Assembly (NCBI GenBank): GCA_964373255.1
Contig: CAYJTG010000003.1
Location: 25,759-89,758, forward strand
Direction of reading: 5' to 3'
Length of the DNA: 64,000 nt
Source: an uncultured archaeon
GTDB taxonomy: Archaea; Aenigmatarchaeota; Aenigmatarchaeia; GW2011-AR5
Shown piece after piece: positions 3,574-61,800 of the stretch (its first letter is position 1; every line of letters starts with the position of its first letter). A program made the position numbers and the translations under genes. The notes below the pieces were generated by a model, which worked only from the letters and a program-made list of their open reading frames with translations, searched no databases and had not been told where the DNA came from.

Positions 3574-5868
3574 TTGGTGTTTTTTATGCCCAACAATGAG
3601 AAAGAAGACGAAGCCATGCTGAAGGTCGGCGAATTGACAGAGCGTGGCGACTTCGGCCGTGGCATTGCTAGAATATCTGCAAAGGACATGAAAAAAATAG
3701 GCGTCAGCGAAGGCGATGTCATTGAGATGGAAGGCAAAAGAAAGACCGGTGCCATAGCTGTCCGTGCTTATCCTGTTGACGTTGGTCTCGATGTCGTGAG
3801 AATGGATGGACTTGCCAGAAGGAACTGTGGTGCAGGCATTGGTGAGATTGTTAAAATAAGAAAGTCCGATGTGAAGGAAGCAAAATCCGTGACTATTGCA
3901 CCGGCTCGCAAAGGCATAATAATTCACATGGGCGGAAACCTGCTGAAACAGAACCTTCTGATGAGACCACTAGCTACGGGCGACATCATAATTCCTAATC
4001 CTATTGTACAGGATCGGAGGTCACAGACAACACTATTTGAGCAGTTCTTTGGCGTCGATTTCGGCGATTTTCTATTTACACCATTCGGCGAAGAGAAGTT
4101 CGCTGTTGTGAGCACCGAGCCAAAAGGTATTGTGCGCGTGACAAGGTCGACAGACGTTGAGCTGCTGCCACAGGCTACAAGGCCCATGGAGGAAGAGAAG
4201 ATCCCCGAGGTCACATACGAAGATTTGGGCGGGCTGCACGAGGAGATAAAAAAGGTTCGCGAAATGATTGAGCTGCCGTTGAAGCACCCTGAGCTCTTTG
4301 AACGTCTTGGTATCGAGCCGCCTAGGGGTATTCTATTACACGGCCCGCCAGGAACCGGCAAGACACTTTTGGCAAAGGCTGTTGCAAATGAGAGCGGCGC
4401 GAAATTTTTTGTTATTAATGGTCCGGAGGTAATGTCAAAATTTTACGGCGAGTCGGAGGAAAATCTTCGTAAGATATTTGAGCAGGGTGAAAAAAATGCG
4501 CCGAGCATAATTTTTATCGATGAAATAGACTCCATCGCGCCTAAGCGCGAGGAAGTCAAGGGCGAGGTTGAGAAAAGAGTTGTTTCACAGCTGCTCACGC
4601 TTCTGGACGGATTGAAATCCCGTGGAAAAATAATTGTCATCGGCGCGACAAACATACCGAATTCGATCGACCCCGCACTAAGAAGGCCGGGACGATTTGA
4701 CCGTGAAATTGAATTAGGCGTGCCCAACAAGGACGGAAGAAAGGAGATTTTGCAGATCCACACAAGGGGCATGCCGCTCGCAAAGAACGTCGAGCTTGAT
4801 AAAATATCTGAAATAACTTATGGCTATGTTGGTGCAGACCTTGCGGCGTTGAGCAAGGAAGCTGCGATGCACGCCCTCAGGCGCGTATTGCCGGACGTAA
4901 GCGCCATAAAAGATGACAAACCAATACCCATAGACATACTAAAAAAGCTCATTGTAACAAAAGAGGATTTTGACCACGCACTAAAGATTGTTGAGCCTTC
5001 TGCGATGAGAGAAGTACTTATCGAGATACCCAACGTAAAGTGGGATGACATAGGCGGACTGGAAGACGTCAAGAAGCTGTTAAAAGAAACCATTGAGTGG
5101 CCGCTTAAATATCCTGATTCGTACGTAAGACTGGGTATAAAACCACCCGCGGGCGTACTTTTATACGGGCCTCCCGGAACTGGAAAGACACTCCTTGCAA
5201 AAGCCGTGGCTAATGAAAGCGGCGCCAACTTTATTTCTGTTAAAGGGCCTGAACTTTTGTCCATGTACGTAGGCGAGAGTGAAAAGCACGTTCGTGAGGT
5301 TTTCAGGCGTGCAAAGCAGGTTGCACCCTGCGTAATATTTCTTGACGAAGTTGATTCTCTTGTACCAAGAAGAGGTACGTCGAACGACAGCCATGTAACT
5401 GAACGTGTTGTTTCGCAGCTCTTGGCAGAGATGTCAGGACTGGAAGATTTGCACGGTGTTATAGTTATCGCTGCGACGAATCGGCCTGACATTATAGACC
5501 CTGCGCTTCTAAGACCAGGTCGGCTAGACAGGCAGATACTTGTCCATACCCCTGACGATGCTGCAAGGCTGGAAATATTCAGGGTGCACACAAAATCTAT
5601 GCCACTTGCTTCTGATGTAGATATAAACGACGTAACAAGCCAAACAAAGGGCTTTTCAGGCGCAGACATAGAAGCCGTATGTCGTGAGGCTGCGTTGTTT
5701 GCGATGAGAAAAAACATAAGCACAGAGCAGGTAACAAGAAAAGATTTCGAACAGGCGCTGAAAGAAGTGAAGCCGTCTCTTACCGAAGAGATGAACCAGT
5801 TCTACGAGAGCATACTGAAGAAGAAAAAATCGCGCGTCATCGAGGAAGAAGTAAACTACATGGGATAA
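3574..5868 (+). CDS. cdc48: AAA+ ATPase Cdc48 / VAT (VCP-like ATPase). N-domain followed by tandem D1 and D2 AAA modules.
   Basis: Two Walker A motifs (GPPGTGKT, twice). Walker B DEID and DEVD. Both SRH regions present. 764 aa. Start possibly at about 3586 (MPNNEK). Confidence 0.92.
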
Positions 5869-10743: not shown

Positions 10744-13521
10744 TCACTTCCAGTATATCTTCGTCCTGGCAAAATTTTTTTCGGCTTCTAGTATATCCTT
10801 GTAGAACTGCTCTTTATTGGTATGGAGCATGGCTAAAATTCTGGCTGCTGTTTGCGGGCCTACGCCGTGGCCCGCCAATGCCTCGACAGCCTTTCGCCCG
10901 TAAACAACGACCAAGTCGGACGACCGGCGGATTGTCTGGAATTCGTTGAGTTCTTCTTTTGTCAACTGTTTCTTTTTGAGCTTCTTTTTCACGATATTTT
11001 GCGCGCTTATCTGCCTTGGTCTTAATATTGCTATCAACGCTGACCTGCATTTGGGGCACTGCGGTTGTTCATTGACATCCTTTACCTTTGTGATCAGTGT
11101 GTAGTCCCCGCAGTTCGTGCACAGAAGCCTTATCCTCGTCAATAGAAGCCTCCTCTTGAATGCCCTGAAGATCTCGCCTTCCGGCATTTTTGGCTTCATG
11201 ACTTCCGAGAACTGCTGAACAAGACCCAGTTCGCCCAGATGGCTCAGTCCTTGACTTACGTGCAGTTTTATTTCGCCGTTCTTGATCTTTTCGATCACGT
11301 CTTTTGCGTTTTTAATGTCCATTTTTTCAAGAAATAGTTCTCGCATCGTCTCTGTGTAGGCAGGGCTATCGGCGTATGACGCAACTATCTTGCTGACGTT
11401 TATTTTATCGTATTTCGCGGCTTTCGATATTATGCCAAAGCGCCTCGCCACATGAACGAACCGCCATTTGAACATTGAAGACCTTTCTATCGAATCCTTC
11501 AGCACGTCATCAAAATTCTTCGCCTCCTTGAGAATTCTTTTTACGTCATCGGGTTTCGCAGTTGTCTGGAGCATTATTCTGTACGGGTCATTCTTTATGT
11601 TGACAGACACTCCTGTTTCTGCCGTAATGATGGCGCCCAAGTATTTTGCAAGTGTATTATTGACCAATGATCCAAAGCATGCGTGAACGACGATAAAGTT
11701 CTTGTAGTTTTCGACGAGCACATTTTTTTCATCGGGCACGATGTGCGATGCCTTGTGCTTTGAAAGTATATCCGCCATTTCTTCCAGCGCGTGCTTATCG
11801 ATATCAAACTCTTCCTCAACTTTGTCAAGGTTTTCAGAAGCAATGAGCCGCCTCAGCCGCCCGACACCATGCGCTATACTAAGTGGGACAGGTATTAGCT
11901 CGCCCTCCCACGCGGGTATAGCAGACTCGATGTCTTCCACTGGTTCGACAATAACCTTGTTGCCATCAACTTGAATTATTTTCCATGCACGGCCGGCGCA
12001 AACAAATCTGTTGCCGCTCTGCCCGTGCTCGGCCACGAACTCTTCATCCAAGCTGCCTATAGGCTCGTTCTCAACGATTGAAATAATTCTGTATTGCACT
12101 TTGTTTGGTATCGTTGACAGGTTTTCAAAGTAGTAGTTCCACGCCCGCCTCTTTCTATTAACCAAATACCCTGTTTTTGTTTTATCTAGCCATACGAGGT
12201 GCAGGCTTTCCAGAAACTCAAGAATTTTTATAAATTCCTTTTTTGTGAGATTCCTGTAGGGGTACGCCCCTTTCACAATCTCGTATATTTTTTCATCCGG
12301 TACCGAATAGTATTCAAGCGCTATGCCGATTATTTGTGTTGCCAGTACGTCAAATGCGTCTGTATGTATTTTTACATCTTCCAGTTTTTTGTCGACGGCG
12401 TTCTTTGCGATAACGGCCGACTCAAAAGCGTCTTCTTCGCCTGTAATAATTATGCCCTTGCTCGTTCTTCCAACGCCGTGGCCGCTGCGGCCAATGCGTT
12501 GTATCAACCTTGAGACCTGTCTAGGCGATAAATATTGGACAACTAAATCTATGGAGCCTATGTCAATGCCAAGCTCCAGGCTGCTCGTAGCTATCAGTGA
12601 TTTCAGTGTTTGTGCTTTGAATTTCTGCTCAGCGCTTATTCTTCGCTCTTTTGAGAGCGACCCGTGATGAACGGCCTGCATAAGCTCCCTGTCAAGAGTT
12701 CTTAACCTCGATGACAGCACTTCAGCAGTCTCGCGCGTATTTGTAAATGTCAGAACAGACGTATGGCTCTTAATCAGTTCGTACAAGTGACGCAGCCGCG
12801 TGGTCGTGTTTATCCCAATGAACAGTTCATCGGCAATAGTTCTGTCCTGCATTGTTGGCTTGGGTGATTCTACCTTAATGGTGTATTTTTTTTCTGAATC
12901 GGCGTGTATAATTTTTACATTGCTCCCAAGAAATTCCGCAACTGTCTGTGGCGAACCGACCGTAGCCGACAACCCAATGCGTTGAAAATCGCCGCAAAGC
13001 TCTTTCAGACGCTCCAGTGCTACAGATAATTGAACGCCCCGCTTGTTTTCGACAAGCTCATGGATTTCGTCGACTACAACGAACTTAACATTTTTGAGGT
13101 GCTCGCGCATCGTTTCCCCGGTCAATATAGCCTGAAGCGTTTCTGGTGTTGTAAGAAGGCAGTGTGGGGGTATTTCCCTCTGTGCGGTCCTTTCTACCTG
13201 CGAAGTATCGCCGTGTCGTACTGATATGTCAAGATCAAGCTTGTCGGCCCACCACACCAAACGGTCGAGAAGGTCCCTGTTCAGTGAGCGCAGCGGTGTT
13301 ATATAGAGTATAGATATAGGTTTTAGCGTATCTTTCGCCGCCTTGTCAAAAAGAGGCAGCATTGCCGTTTCTGTTTTGCCGATACCGGTAGGTGCAATTA
13401 TAAGAATATTCGAACCATTCATTATTTCCGGCATACCCATCTTCTGTGCTAGCGTTGGCTCGATAAATCCCTTGTCTCTTATCAGCTTCTGCATTTTTTC
13501 TGAGAACATCTGAAATGTCAT
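10744..13521 (-). CDS. lhr: Lhr-type large ATP-dependent helicase (superfamily 2, DEAD/DEAH), Lhr-core.
   Basis: 925 aa. Motif I 'APTGIGKT'. DEIH box 'VVVDEIHEL'. Helicase C domain. C-terminal CxxC...CxxC ribbon and HhH-like tail. Confidence 0.85.
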   Translation of the reverse strand: MTFQMFSEKMQKLIRDKGFIEPTLAQKMGMPEIMNGSNILIIAPTGIGKTETAMLPLFDKAAKDTLKPISILYITPLRSLNRDLLDRLVWWADKLDLDISVRHGDTSQVERTAQREIPPHCLLTTPETLQAILTGETMREHLKNVKFVVVDEIHELVENKRGVQLSVALERLKELCGDFQRIGLSATVGSPQTVAEFLGSNVKIIHADSEKKYTIKVESPKPTMQDRTIADELFIGINTTTRLRHLYELIKSHTSVLTFTNTRETAEVLSSRLRTLDRELMQAVHHGSLSKERRISAEQKFKAQTLKSLIATSSLELGIDIGSIDLVVQYLSPRQVSRLIQRIGRSGHGVGRTSKGIIITGEEDAFESAVIAKNAVDKKLEDVKIHTDAFDVLATQIIGIALEYYSVPDEKIYEIVKGAYPYRNLTKKEFIKILEFLESLHLVWLDKTKTGYLVNRKRRAWNYYFENLSTIPNKVQYRIISIVENEPIGSLDEEFVAEHGQSGNRFVCAGRAWKIIQVDGNKVIVEPVEDIESAIPAWEGELIPVPLSIAHGVGRLRRLIASENLDKVEEEFDIDKHALEEMADILSKHKASHIVPDEKNVLVENYKNFIVVHACFGSLVNNTLAKYLGAIITAETGVSVNIKNDPYRIMLQTTAKPDDVKRILKEAKNFDDVLKDSIERSSMFKWRFVHVARRFGIISKAAKYDKINVSKIVASYADSPAYTETMRELFLEKMDIKNAKDVIEKIKNGEIKLHVSQGLSHLGELGLVQQFSEVMKPKMPEGEIFRAFKRRLLLTRIRLLCTNCGDYTLITKVKDVNEQPQCPKCRSALIAILRPRQISAQNIVKKKLKKKQLTKEELNEFQTIRRSSDLVVVYGRKAVEALAGHGVGPQTAARILAMLHTNKEQFYKDILEAEKNFARTKIYWK

Positions 13522-14226: not shown

Positions 14227-16101
14227 TCAGAAACCGAAAATGATTCTTATTATGGTAAGCAGCGACGACGATATGACATTTATTGGATCTGACATTTGTC
14301 CAACAGAAAGCCCAGTAATTACTTCATAACTGCTTTCTGTATCGTTCTGCGATTGGTTTGTGATTTCCATCTCTGTTGTTGGAAGTGACGTATTAAGTTC
14401 TGTGTCATTTATAGCATTAATTACTGGGGGTTCTGCCACATTTATTTCGTTTGTTATATCATTATTTTTGTCGTCAACCCTTACTCGTACACGAAACTTA
14501 TAAACGCCTTTTTCTGTGGTGTTTTCTATCTTGTTCTTAAGATAAAGTATTGTAGACGCTAATGTTGAAAGTTCAACACTCTGTTTATTTGCATCATAAG
14601 TGCCCTTCCACTTATTTTCATTGTTGTCTAACCCTAGTGAAACAGGATTATTGTCTTTGAAAACATACGAGTAAACTGTGAAATTCTTCTGGCTTGTGAA
14701 ATTGTTTGTGATTCTTACGGTTGTTGTAAACTCCTCTTCTATGTGCACGTTTGGCGGGTAGTTTACAACTTCGTACAAGGACACGTTTTGCTTCACAAAT
14801 ACTGTTGTAGTGCCCCCACCACCACCGCTTGTGCCAGAGCTGGATACTATTGTAGTTGTCTTGCAGACCGATGACGAAGACCCCTTAACGTTTATGTTTT
14901 TTGAGTCGATTGCATCAAGGCCTTCTGCAACAATCGCATAGGTGCCGTCAGAAAAAGTGCCGTCACAATTTGATTTTAATTGAACTGGAACTTTCAAGTT
15001 GTACGGTGTGAATTTATTTTCCAGATTCATATTTGTTATATCGCTGATCTTGTTGCCTGTGCTGTTTTTCACGAAAATATCGATAGACGTTTTTGAAGTA
15101 TTGCCCTTGTAAATACTTATAGAAACTTCTGCGGTTTCACCGTATTTTATCTCGTTATCCGATCCCACGTTAACGGATGTTATATTTATGGATGAATCAA
15201 ACTGTGGGCTTGAGCCTTTTACAACGATAACCTTGCTCGCATTATTATTACTCACGTCTGTATCATTGCATCCCGTACTGACAAGGGAAGCTTTGATATA
15301 GTAAGCTTCTGATCCTGTAATGCCATCAGGCGTCCACTGCCTGCCTATTGTTTTTGTGCACAGAAGTTCTGATGTTACTTCCATCGGTGATTTTACGAAA
15401 TTTCCAAAAATATCTTCGACAAAATAGTTTACCGTAGAATTGTGCATGGTATTATTGCACGTTGTATCGTTAACGATTAAATTAAAATTTATTGTCCCTA
15501 TTTCATAAACAACTGAATTTGTGCCTATCGAAAGCTCAAGGTTGCATATAAGTGTGGTGTTTTGCTGAGTCGTATTGGTTTGATTGGTTTGCTGGTTAAT
15601 TTTTGGCTTGTTAACAGCGCCAGGCGTGGGCTCGCATTCTGCAAAGCTGCTGTTGATTATGCAAATGGTTTTACCTTCGGCCGAAACAGGCGAGTATGTT
15701 ATATTGTCAAAAATTTCTGTAGAATTTTTTATCCAGACCGTTTCATTTGCAGAATTCAGAAGGTCTGACCACGAACTGTCTATCACTGGCCCTGTATAAT
15801 TAGAATAATCAGCAAGAAATAAAATCGCGTCCTGTGCAATAACCAAATACCCTCCGGGATTCAAAATCATTGTTCCTTGCCCACCATTTGCAGGCGGCGG
15901 ATTCAATGTATGATCAGTATTACCCGTGTTGAGTTTCCATCCTGTAAGATTGTAGATATCTGAGTCATTATTGTATACTTCTACCCATTCGTGTCCTGTG
16001 TCCGTCCCGTTTGGATTGTGCATTATTTCGTTTATAGAAATTCCATACGATACACTAGAAGAAACAGCTAAAATAAAAATGTACAACAAAATTTTATGCA
16101 T
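14227..16101 (-). CDS. Secreted surface protein. N-terminal signal peptide, lamin-tail (LTD) domain, Asn/Thr-rich region with many N-glycosylation sequons, and a C-terminal TM anchor.
   Basis: Signal-like N-terminus MHKILLYIFILAVSSSVSYG. LTD-like 'ISINEIMHNPNGTDTGHEWVEVYN...GWKL'. More than 25 N-x-S/T sequons. Hydrophobic C-terminus 'LLTIIRIIFGF'. Confidence 0.7.
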   Translation of the reverse strand: MHKILLYIFILAVSSSVSYGISINEIMHNPNGTDTGHEWVEVYNNDSDIYNLTGWKLNTGNTDHTLNPPPANGGQGTMILNPGGYLVIAQDAILFLADYSNYTGPVIDSSWSDLLNSANETVWIKNSTEIFDNITYSPVSAEGKTICIINSSFAECEPTPGAVNKPKINQQTNQTNTTQQNTTLICNLELSIGTNSVVYEIGTINFNLIVNDTTCNNTMHNSTVNYFVEDIFGNFVKSPMEVTSELLCTKTIGRQWTPDGITGSEAYYIKASLVSTGCNDTDVSNNNASKVIVVKGSSPQFDSSINITSVNVGSDNEIKYGETAEVSISIYKGNTSKTSIDIFVKNSTGNKISDITNMNLENKFTPYNLKVPVQLKSNCDGTFSDGTYAIVAEGLDAIDSKNINVKGSSSSVCKTTTIVSSSGTSGGGGGTTTVFVKQNVSLYEVVNYPPNVHIEEEFTTTVRITNNFTSQKNFTVYSYVFKDNNPVSLGLDNNENKWKGTYDANKQSVELSTLASTILYLKNKIENTTEKGVYKFRVRVRVDDKNNDITNEINVAEPPVINAINDTELNTSLPTTEMEITNQSQNDTESSYEVITGLSVGQMSDPINVISSSLLTIIRIIFGF

Positions 16102-55184: not shown

Positions 55185-55509
55185 AATGAAATCCTGAAAA
55201 ATGTAATTATAGCATGGTTTTATAGATGTGATAAAACTCTTATAGTGAATCAATTCTATGTTCTGCCAGGATTGCATCAGCATGCAAAGGGAATGCAAAC
55301 AGCTTGTATGAGTTGAAACGACTATTTCTGGCTTTTCATGTAGATATAATGAGCTTTCATGCTGTTTCTTCATAGAAACCGTCAGAAAAATTTCAGCTTA
55401 CTAGTTACAACGAGGAAATAATATTCTGTTTGCCTTCTTGTATTGCTATAAAAACGTTATTTTGCAATGATTCCTATGAAGTAAGTCAGGCTTACTTTAT
55501 TTTTGGAGT

Positions 55510-55695
55510 GTGATAACGATGGGAGACGCATTGGTTGTAAAAAGCAAGGTTCGTGCATGGGCAAAGAAGAAGAAAATGAATCTTGGTGGCGACGCCGTTG
55601 ACGCGCTAAACAAGGAAATTGTAAGGCTTGTTGACCGCGCATCGGAGCGTGCAAAGGCTAATAGAAGGTCGACGATAAAGGGCAGAGACGTTTAA
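55510..55695 (+). CDS. Small histone-fold-like DNA-binding protein, apparently truncated (alpha1-L1-alpha2-L2, no alpha3).
   Basis: 'GDAVDALNKEIVRLVDRASERAKANRRSTIKGRDV' parallels archaeal histone alpha2-L2 '...ASEAIKLARHAGRKTIKAEDI'. 61 aa. Likely start at the Met of MGDAL (about 55519). Confidence 0.45.
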   Translation: MITMGDALVVKSKVRAWAKKKKMNLGGDAVDALNKEIVRLVDRASERAKANRRSTIKGRDV

Positions 55696-55757
55696 AAAGA
55701 TGCTGAAAAGAATACAATATTTTAGTTTTCTTTTTATTTTAATCATGCTAGAAAAAA

Positions 55758-55955
55758 TTACCCGATATAATTTTCATCTTCTTCCGGTGTTGTGTCCTCG
55801 GGCATTTGGTTTTCTGGTGTGTTCTCGAGTTCCGGCTTCCTGCTCCTTCTTATACGCTCGACGGGGCCGAGGTATTTGCTTGTAACCTTCTTCCCGTTCC
55901 TAATAGAAGAATAATAATATTTTCTGCCGTTGATTACCTTTATGTGCCTGTTCAT
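55758..55955 (-). CDS. Small basic protein with an acidic C-terminal tail, 65 aa.
   Basis: 'KVINGRKYYYSSIRNGKKVTSKYLG' beta-hairpin-like basic motif followed by an acidic tail 'EDTTPEEDENYIG'. A MITE copy lies in its upstream region. Confidence 0.35.
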   Translation of the reverse strand: MNRHIKVINGRKYYYSSIRNGKKVTSKYLGPVERIRRSRKPELENTPENQMPEDTTPEEDENYIG

Positions 55956-56060
55956 GCGCTACCACTTTCCGTTCGACTGTAGACATGTCGTGGTCTGCAG
56001 TATTTAAAATTTTAGTTAGCGCAATTGCTAAATCGTAAAACATAAAATGCGTGTAAGATT

Positions 56061-56180
56061 GGCACTGTCACCTTAACGGCTGTTGAAACAAACTGACGCA
56101 CTAAAGTGCGTCTATCTGCTTTGACAACAGCCCTTTCTGGGTGGTTAGCAATGGCTAACCACCCTTAAGTTGACAGTGCC
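56061..56180. mobile_element. MITE-like element, copy 2 (about 120 bp). Same TIRs and core as 1525-1721 but without the ~77-bp internal segment.
   Basis: TIRs GGCACTGTCACC (56061-56072) and GTTGACAGTGCC (56169-56180). Flanking direct repeat TAAGATT / AAAGATT. Confidence 0.55.
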
Positions 56181-56199
56181 TGAAAGATTGAAGAAAATG

Positions 56200-58929
56200 T
56201 TATTCAAGTACGACCTTCTTTCCCAATGAGCCGTGGAAGCTGATGAGGACCTCTCCGCCGCAGTCGCACAGGCCTCTTATAGGCGCGCGCCTGTAGCTAC
56301 GGTTGCACGATTTGCACACAAATTCGTCCCATCCGCCCAGTTCGCCGGCTGTATTTTCGTTCGTATCTTCGGTATGGTTGTATGCGATGTCGATGTCCTT
56401 TTTTGTGGTGCGCCTTTTTCCCAGCAGCAGGTCTCCTAAGCTTACCTGCCGTCCGTTTCCAAGCAGCTCTGACTTTTCGACGCCTACCGCAGAGAGAATT
56501 CTTTCTATCGGCGGAAACAGCTGGCTCTCGATATAGTAGTTCGAGTCGATTGGTATGTTGTGCTTCTCGGCGTACGCCGGGTCTTCTGCGCGCTTTGAAA
56601 GCATCAGGTTGCCCTTGATAATAACAAATCCTATCCGATCGCCGATCTTTGGCGCGTCGTATGGGTTTCTTGCCGCAAGCTTCCTTGCAAGCTCTATGTG
56701 CGGAAGAATGCCTTTGTAGCTGTCCAGCCCCTGTGTGATGCCCTTTATGATTGTCAGTTTTTCCATCGGTATCTCGTTCTTGCGCAGCTTGTTCAATATG
56801 CCCTTTATGTAATCTATTGCCTTCTGTACGTCCCCTTCCTTGAGTATTATGTTCAGCGTTGTCATCATCGTCTCGCTCACGAGGGCACACCAATCTCTTC
56901 GCACGGTCTCGATGCCGCGCATGTCTATCTCATCGGTCCACCCGTTATCTGTCTGTTCGAACTTCCAGCCGGCGTATCTCTTTTTTGACAGGATAAGAAA
57001 CGTCCTGTATATTTTCTCAAACTGCAGTTCCAGCTGGCCTGGCAGGTTTTCTGTGACGAATTCTGATATCTTTTTGCCAGTCTCTTTGGCCTCATCCAGA
57101 TTGGTCGTTTTTGTCTTGATGAACATGGAATCCGTGTCAGCGTACAGAACCTCAAGCCCAAATTCTTTTTCCACCAGATTTTTTGTCTTTTCCAGATTTT
57201 CGCGCCCGAAGGCTGTTATAGAGTTCGCAACGTCGATCATGTAAAGCCTTGCCCTCACGTATCCCGTATACCCGTAGAACGAGTTTGACATGTCCTTCAA
57301 TGCGAGCTGCTTGGCGTTGAGGATTCTTCTTTCTTCGCCGGTTTTTGTTTTCATGAGTCCTTTAATTTTGCTTCGCGTCTCGATAAGCCTTTCCAAAACA
57401 GAGGGAAATATTCCCTTGTATAAGTCTTGGTCCACGAAAAGTGTGCCGATCGGCGATTCGTGGTGCTTTAGATCTGCTGTCTCTGATGTAAGGACGCTGT
57501 CTGGCGAAATGTTGTACGTCCTCATGATGGAAGGGTAGAGGCTCTTGAAATCCAGGACTATGACGCACGTATCTGCGTGCAGGCCTTTATTTGGCTCCAG
57601 CACGGTGGCGCCCTTGAGCTCTTTTTCTTCTCGTTCTTTTGTGCGCCTGTAGAGCTCCTGCCTGGAGTGCGCCGATGACATGACAACATCCCTTTTCTTA
57701 AACTCGTGAAGAAGCATTGTCTCTATCCTTTTTGTCTGCCCACCGAAGGTATCCTGAAGAAGGACGCCTGATATCTTTGAAAGCTCAAAGAATTTGTTGA
57801 GCATTCCCTTTTCTATGAGCAGTTTCATCGACAGGTCCGCGTCCTTTCTCGAGTACTCAATGAATTTTACCATATTCTGCCTTGTGCTGTTCCAGAGCTC
57901 TGCCATCTCCGAGTACGCAACCCCGTGTTTTTCCTCGTCGAGGAGCTTCTTTGCTACTGTTCTTAGGTCGTAGCGGTGCAGCTTTACCCACGGGTCTCTT
58001 TTCAGTATCTGGTAGGGGTCAACAACAACGCGCCCGGCTACAATAAACTCCTGGGTTATGCCATAAGTTTTGGAAAATGCGTCCTTGTCACACCTTCCTA
58101 TTGACAAAGGCAGCTTGTTTTGCTTTAGCCTTTCGATTATGTAAGGCAGGTCAAATGAATTTATGTTGTAGCCTGTTATTATGTCGGGATCATAAGAATC
58201 GATAATGCACAGCAACTCTTCGAGCATCTCCTTTTCGTTTCTAAAGCCCCTTACGCCGTCGCCAAAAAATGGTTTCGCCACAAGAACTGTGGATTTTGAG
58301 CCCCTGAAGTCCGGCCTGAAAGAGAGCGATACCATAACGATTGGGTCGTGCCTCGCGTCAACGGGCTTTTTGTCGTCCGAAGGTATGCATTCAATATCAA
58401 GGGCCATATAGCTGAGTGGCGCGTTCTCCAGGCTCTCAACGGGGTTTATTTTGTCTGCCTTGTAAGCCGCGACCTTTGACCTCACTGTTTTTTGTTCGTG
58501 TGTGCCTTCGACCTCTACCCACTGCATGCCGTTAAGTCCGTGGTCTACCATGAACCTGTACTTGAACATGATATCCGCTTCGTACACGTCCTGTGCGATA
58601 CCTGTGGATATGAGCTTCTCCCTGACGTGCGGCACGTCCTGCGGGTTGAACAGCATGACCTTGAGCATCTTTGTTTTGCTCTTCTGATAGCCGAGCGGGA
58701 TGAATTTTTCTGTTGGCTCGATGTCTTTTATTTCTTTCATGCCCTCGACGGCCGTAATGGCTTTTCCTGCCGTCATTTTTTCGCTCAGCCTCATGTAGAA
58801 GTAGGGAGTTACCTTGTCGTAAAGTACACAGCACGGTGCCCCGTTTTCTGTGCGCCCAAATATTCTTATAATGGGCTTGTTAGTATTGACAAAATAGTCT
58901 ATGTCTAATATCTGCATTTTGAAAAGCAT
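56200..58929 (-). CDS. polB: Family-B DNA polymerase (PolB) with an intact 3'-5' exonuclease domain and a C-terminal Cys4 zinc-ribbon extension.
   Basis: Exo I 'LDIECIP', Exo II 'YNINSFDLPYI', Exo III 'YSRKDADL'. Pol motif A 'DFKSLYPSI', motif B 'KDMSNSFYGY', motif C 'YADTDS'. C-terminal 'CKSCNRSYRRAPIRGLCDCGG'. Start at the Met of MLFKMQILDIDY, preceded by a GGGGGT Shine-Dalgarno-like sequence. The ORF track extends 5' to 59037. Confidence 0.9.
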   Translation of the reverse strand: MLFKMQILDIDYFVNTNKPIIRIFGRTENGAPCCVLYDKVTPYFYMRLSEKMTAGKAITAVEGMKEIKDIEPTEKFIPLGYQKSKTKMLKVMLFNPQDVPHVREKLISTGIAQDVYEADIMFKYRFMVDHGLNGMQWVEVEGTHEQKTVRSKVAAYKADKINPVESLENAPLSYMALDIECIPSDDKKPVDARHDPIVMVSLSFRPDFRGSKSTVLVAKPFFGDGVRGFRNEKEMLEELLCIIDSYDPDIITGYNINSFDLPYIIERLKQNKLPLSIGRCDKDAFSKTYGITQEFIVAGRVVVDPYQILKRDPWVKLHRYDLRTVAKKLLDEEKHGVAYSEMAELWNSTRQNMVKFIEYSRKDADLSMKLLIEKGMLNKFFELSKISGVLLQDTFGGQTKRIETMLLHEFKKRDVVMSSAHSRQELYRRTKEREEKELKGATVLEPNKGLHADTCVIVLDFKSLYPSIMRTYNISPDSVLTSETADLKHHESPIGTLFVDQDLYKGIFPSVLERLIETRSKIKGLMKTKTGEERRILNAKQLALKDMSNSFYGYTGYVRARLYMIDVANSITAFGRENLEKTKNLVEKEFGLEVLYADTDSMFIKTKTTNLDEAKETGKKISEFVTENLPGQLELQFEKIYRTFLILSKKRYAGWKFEQTDNGWTDEIDMRGIETVRRDWCALVSETMMTTLNIILKEGDVQKAIDYIKGILNKLRKNEIPMEKLTIIKGITQGLDSYKGILPHIELARKLAARNPYDAPKIGDRIGFVIIKGNLMLSKRAEDPAYAEKHNIPIDSNYYIESQLFPPIERILSAVGVEKSELLGNGRQVSLGDLLLGKRRTTKKDIDIAYNHTEDTNENTAGELGGWDEFVCKSCNRSYRRAPIRGLCDCGGEVLISFHGSLGKKVVLE

Positions 58930-58981
58930 AATAATACCCCCGAATGAAACATTTCGTTTTATTTCATAATGTTCTTTACTA

Positions 58982-60115
58982 TTACTTTCCGAATATCTGG
59001 ACCTGCTTTGCATCCCTTGTTTCAAGGTCGATGACAACCGGCCGGAAGTCTGCGAGCATCGACCCTGATGTGGCTATTGTAACTGATTTGTAATTCGTGA
59101 CCTGTGACCCGCTGGCGTGGCCGAAGCACACGATGTCCGGGGTGTCTTCGAGCACAAAGTAATTTTCCTCTGATACCGCCTTTCCGTGGCCGAGGTAACG
59201 CTTTTTTAGCATGCTTAATTCAAATTCGTGTATGACGAGTATCTTTACCCCGTTTATCTCCAGAAACGCCGGATCGCTCAGTGATAATATTTTCCCCGTG
59301 CTGAACTGAACCGGCAGTCTTGGATAAGCGCCGCGTGTGTCCCGCTCGCCCGGGATAAATACAACCTCTTTTTCTCTGCAGTACCTGTCTACCATTCGTT
59401 CGAACGTGCCTATATCACCGACGTCGCCTGCCACAACAAGGTATTTTATATCTTCATTCTCAAACCATAAAAAGAATTTTTCTATTTCACCGATAGGCGC
59501 CTCATCGATCATCAGGTTAGAAACAAGGCACACTTTCCCCCAGCCGACAGTTGGCTGTCGCAGCGGTATGTCCGGCTGTATGACCTGCTTTCCGAACAGG
59601 ATGTTTTTTGATGAAATGGCCCTTATCGCAACGACGTCGTCTGTACCTATATCAGGCTTACCCTCAAAAATGATTGAGGCCGCCCCTGTGTTGTCTTCGA
59701 TATCGACGGTGGTCTTGTCGCCGTTGTCCCTTATGTCACGCACAATTCCTATAACGTAGGACTCATCGAGGTACGCGCCGACCTTGTTTATCGAGACGAA
59801 CGGTTTTCTTATTCTGCTTGTCAGTATTTCTCTGATTTTTTCGTACTTTGCCCTGTAAAAATTTGCAAAATCATCTGGTGTCAGCGTGGTTTTCGGCGCT
59901 GTCAGATTTTTGATTATTTTTATTTCGTCTTTTTTTGCTGCGCTTTCTCTGTGCGCAAAATCCGGCCTATCGAGTACGAGGTCTCCGCCAACCATGCCGC
60001 TGATTTGTTCGTCTGTTATCGTTGCTAACAAATCCGGTGTCAGAAGCTTGCCCTTGCTCAGCAGCTTTTTTACGATTTCCTCTTTCATGCTAAAGATACC
60101 GCCTTTATAGATCAA
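58982..60115 (-). CDS. DP1-like protein, homologous to the PolD small subunit / eukaryotic polymerase B-subunit. Its calcineurin-like phosphoesterase motifs look degenerate.
   Basis: 'FLWFENEDIKYLVVAGDVGDIG' matches the DP1 'YLxIAGDxVDG' block. The DxH position reads 'VSNLMID', the GNHD position reads 'IPGERD', and the GHxH position reads 'CFGHAS'. 377 aa. Confidence 0.55.
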   Translation of the reverse strand: MIYKGGIFSMKEEIVKKLLSKGKLLTPDLLATITDEQISGMVGGDLVLDRPDFAHRESAAKKDEIKIIKNLTAPKTTLTPDDFANFYRAKYEKIREILTSRIRKPFVSINKVGAYLDESYVIGIVRDIRDNGDKTTVDIEDNTGAASIIFEGKPDIGTDDVVAIRAISSKNILFGKQVIQPDIPLRQPTVGWGKVCLVSNLMIDEAPIGEIEKFFLWFENEDIKYLVVAGDVGDIGTFERMVDRYCREKEVVFIPGERDTRGAYPRLPVQFSTGKILSLSDPAFLEINGVKILVIHEFELSMLKKRYLGHGKAVSEENYFVLEDTPDIVCFGHASGSQVTNYKSVTIATSGSMLADFRPVVIDLETRDAKQVQIFGK

Positions 60116-60130
60116 AACGTCTCTTGATGA

Positions 60131-61390
60131 TTAGCTGAACTTGCCGTCAAGAAACTGCACTACCCTGTCAAAGGCACTTCCGGTAACCGATAAAACAATT
60201 TCCCTCGTTCTTCCATGACGACCGTTTGATACGACCTTCGTCGTTATTATGCTCAGCATGTCTAATTCGCCTATAAGATCGCTGACCCTGCGCTGTGTTA
60301 ACGGTTTCAGCCCGTTGCCATCACAGGTTGCCTTATACGCCTCGTATACGTCCCCTGTAAATATCCTTTTGTCGTTCCATCCTTTCTGGGTTTTCATTTT
60401 TTCTGTGACCTTGATGATTGCGTATAAAACTGCCTGAGAGTGTGTTGGCTGGGCTTTTATGCCTTCTGTTATGCGGTCCAGGTCCATTTTCTGCTCAGCC
60501 ATGTCAACGTGCTGCTCTTCAACGGCGCTGTGCCCCATTCGTTCGGCAACCTCGCCTGCCACGCGCAAGAGGTCTAGCGCCCTTCTTGCGTCACCGTGCT
60601 CCTGTGCAGCTATGGCAGCGCACTTGTTTATAACCGCCTCGTCAACAGCGCTTGGTATAAAGCCGTGTAACACCCTTTCTGTGAGTATGTCTTTAATCTG
60701 GGCTGCGTTGTACGGCCTGAACAAGATTTCTTCCTCAGACAGCGATGATCTGATGCGGAGGTCTAGGTTGTTCTGCAGTGAGAGGTCGTTGGTTATGCCG
60801 ACAACGGTTATGTAGCTGTTCTTGAGCTCGTGATTTATGCGTGTGAGGTTGTACAAAAACTCGTCCCCGATCTTCTTCACCAAGGTGTCGACCTCATCCA
60901 GAACAAGAATAATTGTGCTATTCATACGTTCAACCCTGTCAAAAAATTTTCTGTAAAGCACGTTTGTCGGCAGGCCTGTATCAGGGACGTGTTCACCAAG
61001 CTCTTTCAGCAGCTGTGCGACAAGCCTGTATTCTGTGTCTGCCACCTTCTTCATCTTACAGTTTATGTAGACAACGCGGAGCTTTGGGCTGTTTGCCATA
61101 GAAATGAGCTGGCTTGCGACAAATTTCATGGTTATTGTCTTTCCGGTACCGCACGTGCCGTAAATAAATATGTTGTTTGGCCGGTAGCCCTTCAGCACCG
61201 GCGCGAGGACCGAGCTTATCTGTCCTATTTCGTTGTCACGGTGTGTGATCTTCTCAGGAATAAACAGCGATGTCAAATAGTTCTTGTCCCTAAAGATGTT
61301 GCCCTTATGTATGTATTGAGAAAATATGTTGCTACTAATGCTTGTCTTTTGGACCAGTCTTGACACTACCAACACCCCACCAGAAATCAT
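60131..61390 (-). CDS. orc1: Orc1/Cdc6 replication initiator, an AAA+ ATPase with a C-terminal winged helix.
   Basis: Walker A 'GTCGTGKT', Walker B 'ILVLDEVD', sensor motifs. 419 aa. Confidence 0.9.
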   Translation of the reverse strand: MISGGVLVVSRLVQKTSISSNIFSQYIHKGNIFRDKNYLTSLFIPEKITHRDNEIGQISSVLAPVLKGYRPNNIFIYGTCGTGKTITMKFVASQLISMANSPKLRVVYINCKMKKVADTEYRLVAQLLKELGEHVPDTGLPTNVLYRKFFDRVERMNSTIILVLDEVDTLVKKIGDEFLYNLTRINHELKNSYITVVGITNDLSLQNNLDLRIRSSLSEEEILFRPYNAAQIKDILTERVLHGFIPSAVDEAVINKCAAIAAQEHGDARRALDLLRVAGEVAERMGHSAVEEQHVDMAEQKMDLDRITEGIKAQPTHSQAVLYAIIKVTEKMKTQKGWNDKRIFTGDVYEAYKATCDGNGLKPLTQRRVSDLIGELDMLSIITTKVVSNGRHGRTREIVLSVTGSAFDRVVQFLDGKFS

Positions 61391-61800
61391 TACATTATGA
61401 CAACCACGCCAAACAGTAATGATTCAACCACAATATAAGTAAAAACAACCCAAAGTAATTACACCATTATTTCTCTTGGAGGATATATAAACATATCTCT
61501 ACTGGAAATCAACGTTACTGAAAATATAGTTTCAAAACAAGACAGCTCCCCTATATTTCTTGTGGAACTTTTAAACAAACAATTACATAAATAACACTGT
61601 TATAAGAAAGAAAGGGTACGTTTTGTGTTTCTTTTCTTCAAAACTTGTTCTCACCACTAGTCGTTCATTAGAAATAATGGGGTCTGCTATACAGAAATGC
61701 GTATAAATTGCGTGATACCGTACTAATTCCCGATAAAACCAATAATAATCCAACAACACAATAACAGACCAAACCAATTTGTTCTTGCTTATTCCACAAT
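61391..61800. promoter_or_regulatory. Candidate replication origin (oriC): an AT-rich intergenic region next to orc1 carrying ORB-like TCTnnTGGA repeats.
   Basis: Direct repeats TCTCTTGGAGG (~61472), TCTACTGGAAA (~61498) and TCTTGTGGAAC (~61558). An inverted copy ATTCCACAAT (~61791) lies across an AT-rich stretch (61570-61790). The arrangement sits directly upstream of orc1. Confidence 0.4.

What the first reader, a model, noticed from the sequence alone, without database searches (positions are those of the whole stretch)
56200..61390. Replication operon orc1 - DP1-like B-subunit - family-B polymerase, hinting at a eukaryote-like two-subunit PolB
Three genes sit head-to-tail on the minus strand with gaps of only 15-55 nt, next to a putative origin. 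They are Orc1/Cdc6, then a DP1-like protein, then a family-B polymerase. In Pyrococcus-type archaea the gene after cdc6 is DP1, followed by DP2, the catalytic subunit of PolD. Here the DP1 homolog is followed by a PolB instead. In eukaryotes, B-family catalytic subunits pair with DP1-derived B-subunits. An archaeal PolB co-transcribed with a DP1-like subunit would be a rare prokaryotic counterpart of that arrangement.
Basis: partly seen in the sequence, partly recalled or inferred. Interest (0 to 1): 0.85.

Follow-up and report, generated by a model that had tools for sequence, protein, structure and literature searches.

The report
Aenigmatarchaeal two-subunit PolB replication operon
Next to a likely replication origin, this DPANN archaeon encodes Orc1, a catalytically dead DP1-type "B-subunit" and a family-B DNA polymerase carrying a zinc finger borrowed from PolD; this eukaryote-like two-subunit polymerase is real, but it was described for this lineage in 2020 and its subunit interaction was shown by yeast two-hybrid in 2025.

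Summary
On the minus strand, orc1/cdc6 (60131-61390), a DP1-like gene (58982-60088) and a family-B polymerase (56200-58929) lie head to tail with gaps of 42 and 52 nt. They sit downstream of an AT-rich spacer with ORB-like repeats.

The DP1-like protein is a true DP1/B-subunit homologue, not a generic phosphoesterase. Its predicted fold matches P. abyssi DP1 (E 2e-24), then eukaryotic B-subunits (about 1e-16), and other phosphoesterases only weakly (E 3.5e-6 or worse). Its nuclease site is dead: 3 of 7 metal ligands remain and the catalytic His is lost.

The PolB keeps all exonuclease and polymerase motifs and a PIP-like box. It ends in a single Cys4 finger that matches only the Zn-III finger of DP2. 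No DP2 is in the window.

The gene order is conserved. Orc1 lies upstream in 29/29 evaluable Aenigmatarchaeota species genomes, and PolB lies directly downstream in 22.

However, it repeats published work: Kazlauskas et al. 2020 (group B6-aenigma1 PolB, inactive DP1, DP2 absent) and a 2025 Nat Ecol Evol paper (AlphaFold3 and yeast two-hybrid interaction).

The increments here are the origin-linked operon, the positional hint that DP2 was replaced in situ, and the mosaic decay of the nuclease site across the family.

The parts
61391..61788 (.). Putative replication origin: AT-rich spacer upstream of orc1. It has three direct ORB-like boxes (61469-61481, 61495-61507, 61555-61567, minus strand) and an inverted partner (61661-61683). 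These flank a 71% A+T stretch (61568-61660).
   Evidence: The motif [TC]TCCA..[AT]GA[AG]A is about 47-fold enriched upstream of orc1 in 28 related loci. Origin function is inferred, not shown.
60131..61390 (-). orc1/cdc6 replication initiator, 419 aa
   Evidence: NCBIfam NF001625 ORC1-type E 1e-138 and TIGR02928 5e-121 (above cutoff). Pfam AAA, Cdc6_lid and Cdc6_C winged helix.
58982..60088 (-). DP1-like B-subunit, 368 aa (377 aa if the upstream TTG at 60115 is used). It has an N-terminal helical domain, an OB fold and a phosphodiesterase fold with a degenerate active site.
   Evidence: Residues at the P. abyssi DP1 positions D360/H362/D404/N450/H451/H497/H560/H562 are N/M/D/E/R/H/H/S.
56200..58929 (-). 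Family-B DNA polymerase, 909 aa (945 aa from the upstream TTG at 59037). Exonuclease and polymerase motifs are intact.
   Evidence: Pfam DNA_pol_B 2e-110 and DNA_pol_B_exo1 2e-34. Motifs found: Exo I DIE, Exo II NINSFD, Exo III YSRKD, A DFKSLYPS, B KDMSNSFYG, C YADTDS, and KKRY. Best PDB matches are Thermococcales PolB (1e-109) and human Pol delta (8e-107).
56425..56448 (-). PIP-box-like motif QVSLGDLL (PolB aa 828-835) at the end of the polymerase body
   Evidence: It aligns with the C-terminal RQVGLGAWL of Thermococcus PolB. G[RK]Q..[LI]..[ILM] is conserved in 7 related PolBs. PCNA binding is inferred.
56203..56331 (-). C-terminal domain of PolB (aa 867-909) with a single Cys4 zinc finger, CKSC-x14-CDC (56260-56316). 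It is homologous to the Zn-III finger of PolD large subunit DP2.
   Evidence: NCBIfam DP2 models match aa 905-938 of the 945-aa ORF. phmmer against the PDB hits only DP2: 6knb_B residues 1127-1158 at E 1.5e-3, and 6hms_B. tblastn with a Micrarchaeota DP2 hits only this spot in the window. The motif is conserved in all 7 neighbouring PolBs examined.
56070..56199 (-). Two strong hairpins immediately 3' of the PolB stop codon; possible operon end or terminator-like element
   Evidence: RNA fold MFE -54.9 kcal/mol, z -7.6, 0 of 200 shuffles fold as well. Comparable hairpins occur in some relatives but not most. No Rfam match.

Best explanation
This is the chromosomal replication locus of an Aenigmatarchaeota (DPANN) archaeon. 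An origin with ORB boxes is followed by orc1 and then by the two genes of a heterodimeric, eukaryote-like family-B replicase.

The catalytic subunit is a complete PolB, with polymerase, its own 3'-5' exonuclease and a PIP-like box. A short DP2-derived zinc finger (Zn-III type) is appended to its C-terminus.

The second subunit is a shortened DP1. It keeps the N-terminal domain, the OB fold and the phosphodiesterase fold, but it has lost the nuclease active site.

Proposed mechanism (inferred). The zinc-finger CTD docks onto the DP1-like subunit, as DP2 Zn-III docks onto DP1 and as eukaryotic CTDs dock onto B-subunits. Proofreading is done by the PolB exonuclease. The dead DP1 then serves only as a scaffold linking the polymerase to the replisome, for example to GINS through the DP1 N-terminal domain.

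Shown here: homologies, domain composition, loss of active-site residues, and conserved gene order. Taken from the literature: absence of DP2 in the lineage and the two-hybrid interaction. Inferred: co-transcription, scaffold role, and PCNA and GINS contacts.
For: - Gene identities.
- DP1/B-subunit fold: AF2 pLDDT 89.2. Foldseek gives DP1 at E 2e-24 and TM 0.72, eukaryotic B-subunits at 1e-17 to 1e-15, and Vps29/Mre11 at 3.5e-6 or worse with TM about 0.3.
- Dead nuclease: only 3 of the 7 metal ligands listed for P. abyssi DP1 are kept, and the essential H451 is replaced by Arg (residue list from PMC10721889). H451 is absent in 0/102 family members retained, i.e. no member keeps it.
- PolB catalytic motifs are intact.
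- The CTD matches only DP2 Zn-III and is conserved in PolBs next to DP1-like genes, even where DP1-like identity is only 24-29%.
- Synteny in 30 species-representative Aenigmatarchaeota genomes: orc1 upstream in 29/29 evaluable and PolB directly downstream in 22. Gaps are as small as 1-9 nt or overlapping in relatives.
- Housekeeping flanks (thiolase/HMG-CoA synthase/DUF35, NAC, TctA, SecDF) are also conserved.
- No DP2 in the window.
- Literature: PMC7544198 and PMC12680538 report the same system, DP2 absence, and a Y2H/AF3 interaction. PMC9023282 (abstract) reports that the DP1 N-terminal domain binds Gins51.
Against: - The interaction was not tested for this particular pair.
- Only 64 kb of the genome was seen, so a DP2 or a second, active DP1 elsewhere cannot be excluded directly.
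- The CTD is minimal: one finger, ending 19 residues after it. The 2025 paper calls it degenerate, with a different predicted structure from the DP2 and Baldrarchaeia CTDs.
- In 4 of 29 related genomes PolB is not within 6 kb of the DP1-like gene, and in 2 it lies on the opposite strand. Adjacency is therefore common but not obligatory.
- A TATA-like 'TCTATAAAG' in the orc1/DP1-like spacer could be an internal promoter, so a single transcript is unproven.
- About a third of family members keep all seven metal ligands, so 'dead nuclease' may not hold for the whole family.
Confidence: 0.85

Rival explanations
1. The DP1-like protein is still the small subunit of a conventional PolD whose DP2 gene lies elsewhere in the genome. 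Its position next to PolB would then be only a neighbourhood effect of the origin-proximal replication cluster.
For: DP1 and DP2 are not adjacent in most canonical DP1 loci fetched (L042-L057). Only 64 kb of this genome was examined. PMC7544198 says DP2 is absent in 'most', not all, sequenced Aenigmarchaeota.
Against: - The nuclease site that gives PolD its proofreading is destroyed.
- The DP2 docking finger is found on the PolB instead.
- The DP1-like/PolB-CTD pairing persists down to 24% DP1-like identity.
- PMC12680538 lists Aenigmatarchaeota as lacking DP2 while retaining DP1, and shows DP1 binding PolB-DP2CTD.
Confidence: 0.05
2. The 368-aa protein is a generic calcineurin-like metallophosphoesterase, or an independent nuclease, with no structural role in the polymerase.
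For: The only Pfam hit above cutoff is Metallophos_2 (27.5 bits against a cutoff of 27). DNA_pol_E_B is below cutoff. Public annotations call the homologues 'metallophosphoesterase family protein'.
Against: - The whole-chain fold match covers the OB plus PDE architecture specific to DP1 and B-subunits. There is a gap of about 10 orders of magnitude in E-value (about 18 from the best DP1 hit) to other phosphoesterases.
- NCBIfam PolD small-subunit models align to the N-terminal and OB part.
- Key metal ligands and the catalytic His are missing.
- The protein is conserved immediately upstream of a CTD-bearing PolB.
Confidence: 0.02
3. The DP1-like/PolB pair, perhaps with orc1, belongs to an integrated virus or plasmid rather than being the cell's main replicase.
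For: PMC7544198 suggests that the restricted B4/B6 PolB groups are ultimately of viral or mobile-element provenance. Archaeal orc1 and PolB genes are often carried by integrated elements (same paper's discussion).
Against: - The locus and its housekeeping flanks (mevalonate-pathway thiolase/HMG-CoA synthase, NAC, TctA, SecDF) are syntenic across genomes with only 45-60% protein identity.
- G+C of 56-62 kb (0.44-0.48) equals that of its flanks.
- No integrase, tRNA or terminal repeats are nearby.
- ORB boxes upstream of orc1 are conserved.
- An ancient mobile origin of the PolB gene is not excluded, but the present locus behaves as chromosomal.
Confidence: 0.05

Closest known systems
Aenigmarchaeota group B6-aenigma1 PolB with 'Aenigma_GB_GCA_002789635-like' inactive DP1 (Kazlauskas et al. 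2020, PMC7544198; interaction shown by Y2H/AlphaFold3 in PMC12680538, 2025)
   Same: Same lineage. [quoted passage not shown] The DP1 homologue is inactivated. No DP2 is found. The proposed two-subunit, eukaryote-like PolB is the same. The window is an instance of this system.
   Different: Nothing essential differs. The main texts of those papers do not describe the conserved origin-orc1-DP1-PolB operon, the retained PIP-like box, or the residue-by-residue mosaic decay of the nuclease site. In those respects this analysis adds detail only.
Archaeal PolD (DP1-DP2 heterodimer; P. abyssi and T. kodakarensis structures 6hms, 6t8h, 8ppt, 6knb)
   Same: The small subunit is homologous (N-terminal domain, OB and PDE folds). 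The docking element (Zn-III finger) is homologous. The locus position mirrors cdc6-DP1-DP2 of Thermococcales (own knowledge) and the DP1-DP2 adjacency in a Micrarchaeota genome (L049).
   Different: The catalytic subunit is a family-B polymerase, not the two-barrel DP2. Only about 30 residues of DP2 survive. The DP1-like subunit lacks 4 of 7 metal ligands and the catalytic His, and it lacks two insertions of canonical DP1. Proofreading has therefore moved to the PolB exonuclease.
Eukaryotic replicative polymerases: Pol delta (p125-p50), Pol alpha (p180-p70), Pol epsilon (Pol2-Dpb2/p59), Pol zeta (Rev3-Pol31)
   Same: A B-family catalytic subunit whose cysteine-rich C-terminal domain is expected to bind a catalytically dead DP1-derived B-subunit. 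The predicted fold of the window protein matches these B-subunits at E 1e-17 to 1e-15. The polymerase body is about as similar to human Pol delta (8e-107) as to Thermococcales PolB.
   Different: The eukaryotic CTD has two metal modules (CysA and CysB) joined by a helical bundle, whereas here there is one short zinc ribbon. No accessory third or fourth subunits are evident. The second subunit is closer to archaeal DP1 than to any eukaryotic B-subunit.
Baldrarchaeia (Asgard) PolB3-DP2CTD with DP1 (PMC12680538)
   Same: The other archaeal lineage reported to lack DP2, keep DP1 and carry a PolB fused to a DP2-type CTD that binds DP1.
   Different: According to that paper, the Baldrarchaeia CTD is longer and resembles the DP2 and eukaryotic CTDs in sequence and structure, while the Aenigmatarchaeota CTD is shorter and 'degenerate'. 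The window PolB is of the short type.

Membership tests
DP1 / eukaryotic B-subunit superfamily | Two-domain core: an OB fold followed by a calcineurin-like phosphodiesterase fold in one chain | tested here: met
   AF2 model pLDDT 89.2. Foldseek full-length matches to P. abyssi DP1 (E 2e-24, TMq 0.72) and to Pol epsilon/delta/alpha/zeta B-subunits (1e-17 to 1e-15). Other phosphoesterases match at 3.5e-6 or worse.
DP1 / eukaryotic B-subunit superfamily | Sequence homology to DP1 beyond the generic PDE domain (N-terminal and OB region) | tested here: met
   NCBIfam PolD small-subunit NF003118 E 7e-32 over residues 30-234 (profile positions 47-274 of 481), below the equivalog cutoff. phmmer against the PDB hits DP1 only.
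Active PolD small subunit (proofreading DP1) | Seven metal ligands (D360, H362, D404, N450, H497, H560, H562) and the catalytic H451 (P. abyssi numbering, PMC10721889) | tested here: not met
   The window protein has N, M, D, E, H, H, S at the ligand positions and R at the catalytic position, so 3 of 7 ligands remain and there is no catalytic His. NCBIfam score is 111 bits against a cutoff of 445.
Active PolD small subunit (proofreading DP1) | Partner DP2 large subunit encoded in the genome | not testable with these tools
   No DP2 in the 64-kb window. The literature reports DP2 absent from the lineage.
Family-B DNA polymerase (active, proofreading) | Exo I/II/III motifs, polymerase motifs A (DxxSLYPS), B (KxxxNSxYG) and C (DTD), and KKRY | tested here: met
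   Pfam DNA_pol_B 2e-110 and exo1 2e-34. All motifs located.
B6-aenigma1 PolB (Kazlauskas 2020) | [quoted passage not shown] | tested here: met
   C-x2-C-x14-C-x-C. The only PDB and NCBIfam matches are DP2 Zn-III. tblastn with a Micrarchaeota DP2 hits only this segment.
B6-aenigma1 PolB (Kazlauskas 2020) | Phylogenetic placement in group B6 / Delta-like clade | not tested
   No tree was built. The only observation is that Pol delta and Thermococcales PolB are about equally good PDB matches. All close relatives are Aenigmatarchaeota MAGs.
Eukaryotic-type PolB CTD | Two metal-binding modules (CysA and CysB) separated by a helical bundle | tested here: not met
   Only four cysteines in one motif. 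The protein ends 19 residues after the finger.
Two-subunit PolB holoenzyme | Physical binding of the CTD to the DP1-like subunit | not testable with these tools
For Aenigmatarchaeota representatives the interaction is reported by Y2H and AlphaFold3 (PMC12680538).
Orc1/Cdc6 initiator with adjacent oriC | AAA+ domain, lid and winged helix; ORB repeats and an AT-rich unwinding element next to the gene | tested here: met
   (protein). (three direct boxes plus one inverted box, a 71% A+T core, and the motif conserved and enriched upstream of orc1 in relatives). Origin firing was not tested.

The most novel reading that the evidence does not exclude
The conserved order oriC-orc1-DP1like-PolB(CTD) mirrors the cdc6-DP1-DP2 order of Thermococcales and the DP1-DP2 adjacency seen in a Micrarchaeota genome. 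This suggests the PolB did not simply arrive elsewhere while DP2 was later lost. Instead it may have recombined into the resident DP2 gene in situ, replacing the two-barrel catalytic body and leaving the 3'-terminal Zn-III codons in place.

If so, the locus would be a positional fossil of the domain swap postulated for the origin of eukaryotic replicative polymerases. The graded decay of the DP1 nuclease site across the family (all 7 ligands kept in 32 members, 0 ligands kept in 8 of 102, and the catalytic His lost in all) would record the relaxation of selection that followed.
Probability: 0.35. Interest if true: 0.5.

Novelty: already known. Interest (0 to 1): 0.3.

Why it matters
Eukaryotic replicative polymerases all pair a B-family catalytic subunit with a dead, DP1-derived B-subunit through a cysteine-rich C-terminal domain. 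How that chimera arose from archaeal PolD and PolB is a long-standing question.

Aenigmatarchaeota are one of only two archaeal lineages known to show the intermediate state, and this window is a clean, complete example of it. It is linked to the origin and initiator gene, has an intact proofreading PolB, a minimal DP2 finger and a clearly inactivated DP1.

Because the system is already published, including interaction data, the window adds no new concept. It offers a good construct for biochemistry. The synteny and active-site statistics gathered here support an in-situ replacement scenario and a stepwise loss of the DP1 nuclease.

Tried and rejected
No interface model was obtained.
- The first genome-collection scan, with the broad alignment A1, failed for lack of a conserved stretch. 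It was repeated with the closer alignment A2.
- The source organism could not be named from the identical database protein: its cluster has one unnamed member. The window's own genome was not among the GTDB species representatives (best hit 53% identity). A genome-wide search for DP2 was therefore impossible.
- Generic metallophosphoesterase reading: rejected on fold and profile evidence.
- Mobile-element reading: rejected on synteny and composition.
- In the four related genomes without an adjacent PolB, I looked for DP2. There was no ORF above 600 aa, and the neighbours are MtrA-like, aIF2/IF-2 GTPase and ParA-like proteins.
- Rfam and tRNA scans of the window found nothing.
- The hairpins 3' of PolB are not conserved in most relatives.
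- The small ORFs in 55.2-56.2 kb have no Pfam match.

Full report
**Observation**

The three ORFs are present on the minus strand:
- orc1/cdc6 at 60131-61390 (419 aa).
- A DP1-like ORF at 58982-60115 (377 aa from a TTG start).
- A family-B polymerase ORF at 56200-59037 (945 aa from a TTG start).

An identical database protein of 368 aa (P0001) and the genes called on three independent contigs of the same organism place the real starts at ATG 60088 and ATG 58929. The PolB is then 909 aa, and its ATG is preceded by GGGGGT.

Pfam and NCBIfam confirm Orc1/Cdc6 (E 1e-138) and a family-B polymerase (DNA_pol_B 2e-110, exonuclease domain 2e-34).

**Putative origin**

The 398-nt spacer upstream of orc1 is 68% A+T, against 60% for the window. 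It contains three direct ORB-like boxes, TTCCANNAGARAT, at 61469-81, 61495-507 and 61555-67. An inverted partner lies at 61661-83, across a 71% A+T core.

A window-wide count of this loose pattern is not significant on its own: 6 matches against 3.9 expected. The clustering and the conservation are what count. In 28 related loci, 34 of 53 matches to [TC]TCCA..[AT]GA[AG]A fall in the 450 nt upstream of orc1. That is 3.7% of the sequence, an enrichment of about 47-fold. An origin next to orc1 is therefore a reasonable inference, though its function is untested.

**The middle gene**

Pfam gives only a marginal Metallophos_2 hit and a sub-threshold DNA_pol_E_B hit. NCBIfam matches five PolD small-subunit models and nothing else. 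The best is E 7e-32 over residues 30-234, which covers the N-terminal and OB part. It is far below the equivalog cutoff. phmmer against PDB sequences finds DP1 chains only.

An AlphaFold2 model built on 27 sequences is confident (pLDDT 89.2, pTM 0.81). Foldseek against the PDB ranks the hits as follows:
- P. abyssi DP1 first (E 2e-24, TM 0.72).
- Then the B-subunits of human and yeast Pol epsilon, delta, alpha and zeta (1e-17 to 1e-15).
- Then, after a gap of about ten orders of magnitude, Vps29 and Mre11 (E 3.5e-6 or worse, TM about 0.3).

**Nuclease site**

PMC10721889 lists the P. abyssi DP1 metal ligands as D360, H362, D404, N450, H497, H560 and H562, and the essential H451, whose H451A variant is exonuclease-dead.

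Aligned to canonical DP1s, the window protein has N, M, D, E, H, H, S at the ligand positions and R at position 451. Only 3 of 7 ligands remain and the catalytic His is gone.

Across 102 short family members:
- The H451 equivalent is retained in none.
- All seven ligands are retained in 32.
- The remaining members keep anywhere from 0 to 6 ligands.

The family also lacks two insertions found in canonical DP1. This looks like relaxed selection following a single early loss of the catalytic His. The window protein is among the more decayed members.

**The polymerase**

All exonuclease motifs (DIE, NINSFD, YSRKD) and polymerase motifs (DFKSLYPS, KDMSNSFYG, YADTDS, KKRY) are present. The body is about equally similar to Thermococcales PolB (1e-109) and to human Pol delta (8e-107).

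At the end of the body, QVSLGDLL aligns with the C-terminal RQVGLGAWL of Thermococcus PolB. I know that sequence as the PCNA-interacting motif of those enzymes (own knowledge). It is conserved in related PolBs.

After a linker of about 35 residues comes a 43-residue tail, WDEFVCKSCNRSYRRAPIRGLCDCGGEVLISF... Its only matches in NCBIfam and in the PDB are to the Zn-III finger of DP2. The T. kodakarensis DP2 segment 1127-1158 is [32 protein letters not shown] (E 1.5e-3). Zn-III is the element that connects DP2 to DP1 (PMC10721889).

A tblastn search with a Micrarchaeota DP2 (taken from L049, verified by Pfam) hits the window only at this tail: 56239-56322, 48% identity. It hits the same tail in at least 17 related loci, sometimes extending 30-35 residues upstream of the finger.

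No other DP2-like sequence and no ORF longer than 925 aa occurs in the window. The large ORFs are Cdc48, an Lhr-type helicase and glycosylation enzymes.

**Conservation of the arrangement**

Homologues of the DP1-like protein are almost all from Aenigmatarchaeota MAGs.

Contig look-ups show orc1, DP1-like and PolB in that order at 36-48% DP1-like identity. The flanks are the same: thiolase/HMG-CoA synthase/DUF35 on one side and NAC, TctA and SecDF on the other. In lineages with only 24-27% DP1-like identity, the DP1-like gene is followed by PolB after 9 nt, without orc1.

Among 30 species-representative Aenigmatarchaeota genomes:
- orc1 lies immediately upstream in 29 of 29 evaluable cases.
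- PolB lies directly downstream on the same strand in 22.
- PolB is nearby on the opposite strand in 2.
- PolB is absent within 6 kb in 4. No DP2-sized ORF takes its place there.

The CTD motif F-x-C-x2-C-x3-[YF]-x-R-x-P-L-x-G-x-C-x-C-G-G is present in all seven neighbouring PolBs I translated. The conserved synteny and the uniform G+C of the region argue against an integrated mobile element.

**Comparison with the literature**

Kazlauskas et al. 2020 (PMC7544198) already describe the following:
- PolB group B6 in Aenigmarchaeota.
- A clade of inactive DP1 ('Aenigma_GB_GCA_002789635-like').
- The absence of DP2 in most Aenigmarchaeota.

They propose that this PolB replaced DP2, and that eukaryotic B-subunits may descend from such a state.

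[quoted passage not shown] It reports AlphaFold3 predictions and yeast two-hybrid assays in which DP1 binds PolB-DP2CTD in both clades. It notes that the Aenigmatarchaeota CTD is short and degenerate. It reassigns the two-finger 'B6-aenigma2' sequences to Baldrarchaeia contamination.

Neither main text mentions the operon, orc1 linkage or gene adjacency for Aenigmatarchaeota. The 2025 paper does deposit neighbourhood plots externally.

**Mechanism**

Shown here:
- A complete proofreading PolB with an appended DP2 finger.
- A DP1 homologue without a nuclease site.
- Conserved tight linkage of these genes to each other, to orc1 and to ORB boxes.

From the literature: the lineage lacks DP2 and the two proteins interact.

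Inferred:
- The finger docks between the OB and PDE domains, as in PolD and in eukaryotic holoenzymes.
- The DP1-like subunit is retained as a scaffold. Its conserved N-terminal domain is the part of DP1 that binds Gins51 in T. kodakarensis (PMC9023282 abstract).
- PCNA is engaged through the PIP-like box.
- The three genes are co-transcribed from the origin-proximal promoter.

**What is modestly new**

DP1-DP2 adjacency is also seen in a DPANN Micrarchaeota genome (L049). This fits an in-situ replacement of the DP2 body that left its 3' finger in place.
- The nuclease site shows graded decay across the family.
- A PIP-like box is retained upstream of the CTD.

None of these changes the category. 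The finding is a clean member of an already described system.

**Limits**

- I could not co-fold the pair.
- I could not identify the source assembly.
- I could not search the rest of the genome for DP2.
- I built no phylogeny, so assignment to group B6 rests on the CTD type and on lineage.

Noticed in passing
window 56070-56199 (minus strand): Two very stable hairpins lie directly after the PolB stop codon. One is GGGTGGTTAGC/GCTAACCACCC; the other is a nested GGCTGTTG...GACGCAC/GTGCGTC...CAACAGCC. MFE is -54.9 kcal/mol with z -7.6. Similar strong hairpins follow PolB in some relatives (L004, L019, L040, L024) but not in most, and there is no Rfam match. This could be a terminator-like element or a small palindromic repeat.
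   Followed up: partly
window 55185-56199: About 1 kb between the TctA-like transporter gene and PolB has only small ORFs (for example 55510-55695 on the plus strand, 61 aa, and 55758-55955 on the minus strand, 65 aa, lysine/arginine-rich). None has a Pfam, Rfam or tRNA match. Relatives also have 60-80 aa unannotated genes at this position (L004, L006).
   Followed up: partly
window ~22000-44000: A low-G+C block (0.31-0.38, against 0.40-0.48 elsewhere) is packed with glycosylation genes: PMT-type mannosyltransferases, a Polysacc_synt flippase and UDP-glucose dehydrogenase. This is a typical variable surface-glycan island and may have been acquired horizontally.
   Followed up: no
L027 2855-6991 and L032 7569-11444: In these two Aenigmatarchaeota genomes the PolB homologue spans about 4 kb. 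Its inserted part matches the intein/LAGLIDADG region of an intein-containing Micrarchaeota DP2. These PolBs therefore probably carry inteins.
   Followed up: partly
L007/L008 8001-11870 and L010 2894-6784: A distant branch (DP1-like 24-27% identical) keeps the DP1-like to PolB-CTD pair with a 9-nt gap but has no orc1 upstream. Instead it has Hjc resolvase and a separate 225-aa metallophosphoesterase nearby. The lineage was not identified.
   Followed up: no
L020, L030, L031, L037 (downstream of the DP1-like gene): Four Aenigmatarchaeota species keep orc1 followed by DP1-like but have no PolB within 6 kb. The following genes are MtrA-like, aIF5B/IF-2-type GTPase, ParA/Mrp-like and an unknown 421-aa protein. 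Where their PolB lies, and whether it keeps the CTD, was not checked.
   Followed up: partly
L014 7080-8070 and L025 7056-8650: In these two relatives an extra 1.0-1.6 kb is inserted between the DP1-like gene and PolB. Its content was not examined.
   Followed up: no
window 14227-16101 (minus strand): A 624-aa protein has an N-terminal lamin-tail domain (LTD, E 4e-13). It sits next to an Lhr-type helicase (10744-13521) and a Cdc48 ATPase (3574-5868).
   Followed up: no
L049 6001-11887: A Micrarchaeota genome shows DP1 followed, with a 20-nt overlap, by an intein-containing DP2 (1623 aa with LAGLIDADG). It was used here as the positional comparator for the DP1 to catalytic-subunit gene order in DPANN.
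   Followed up: yes
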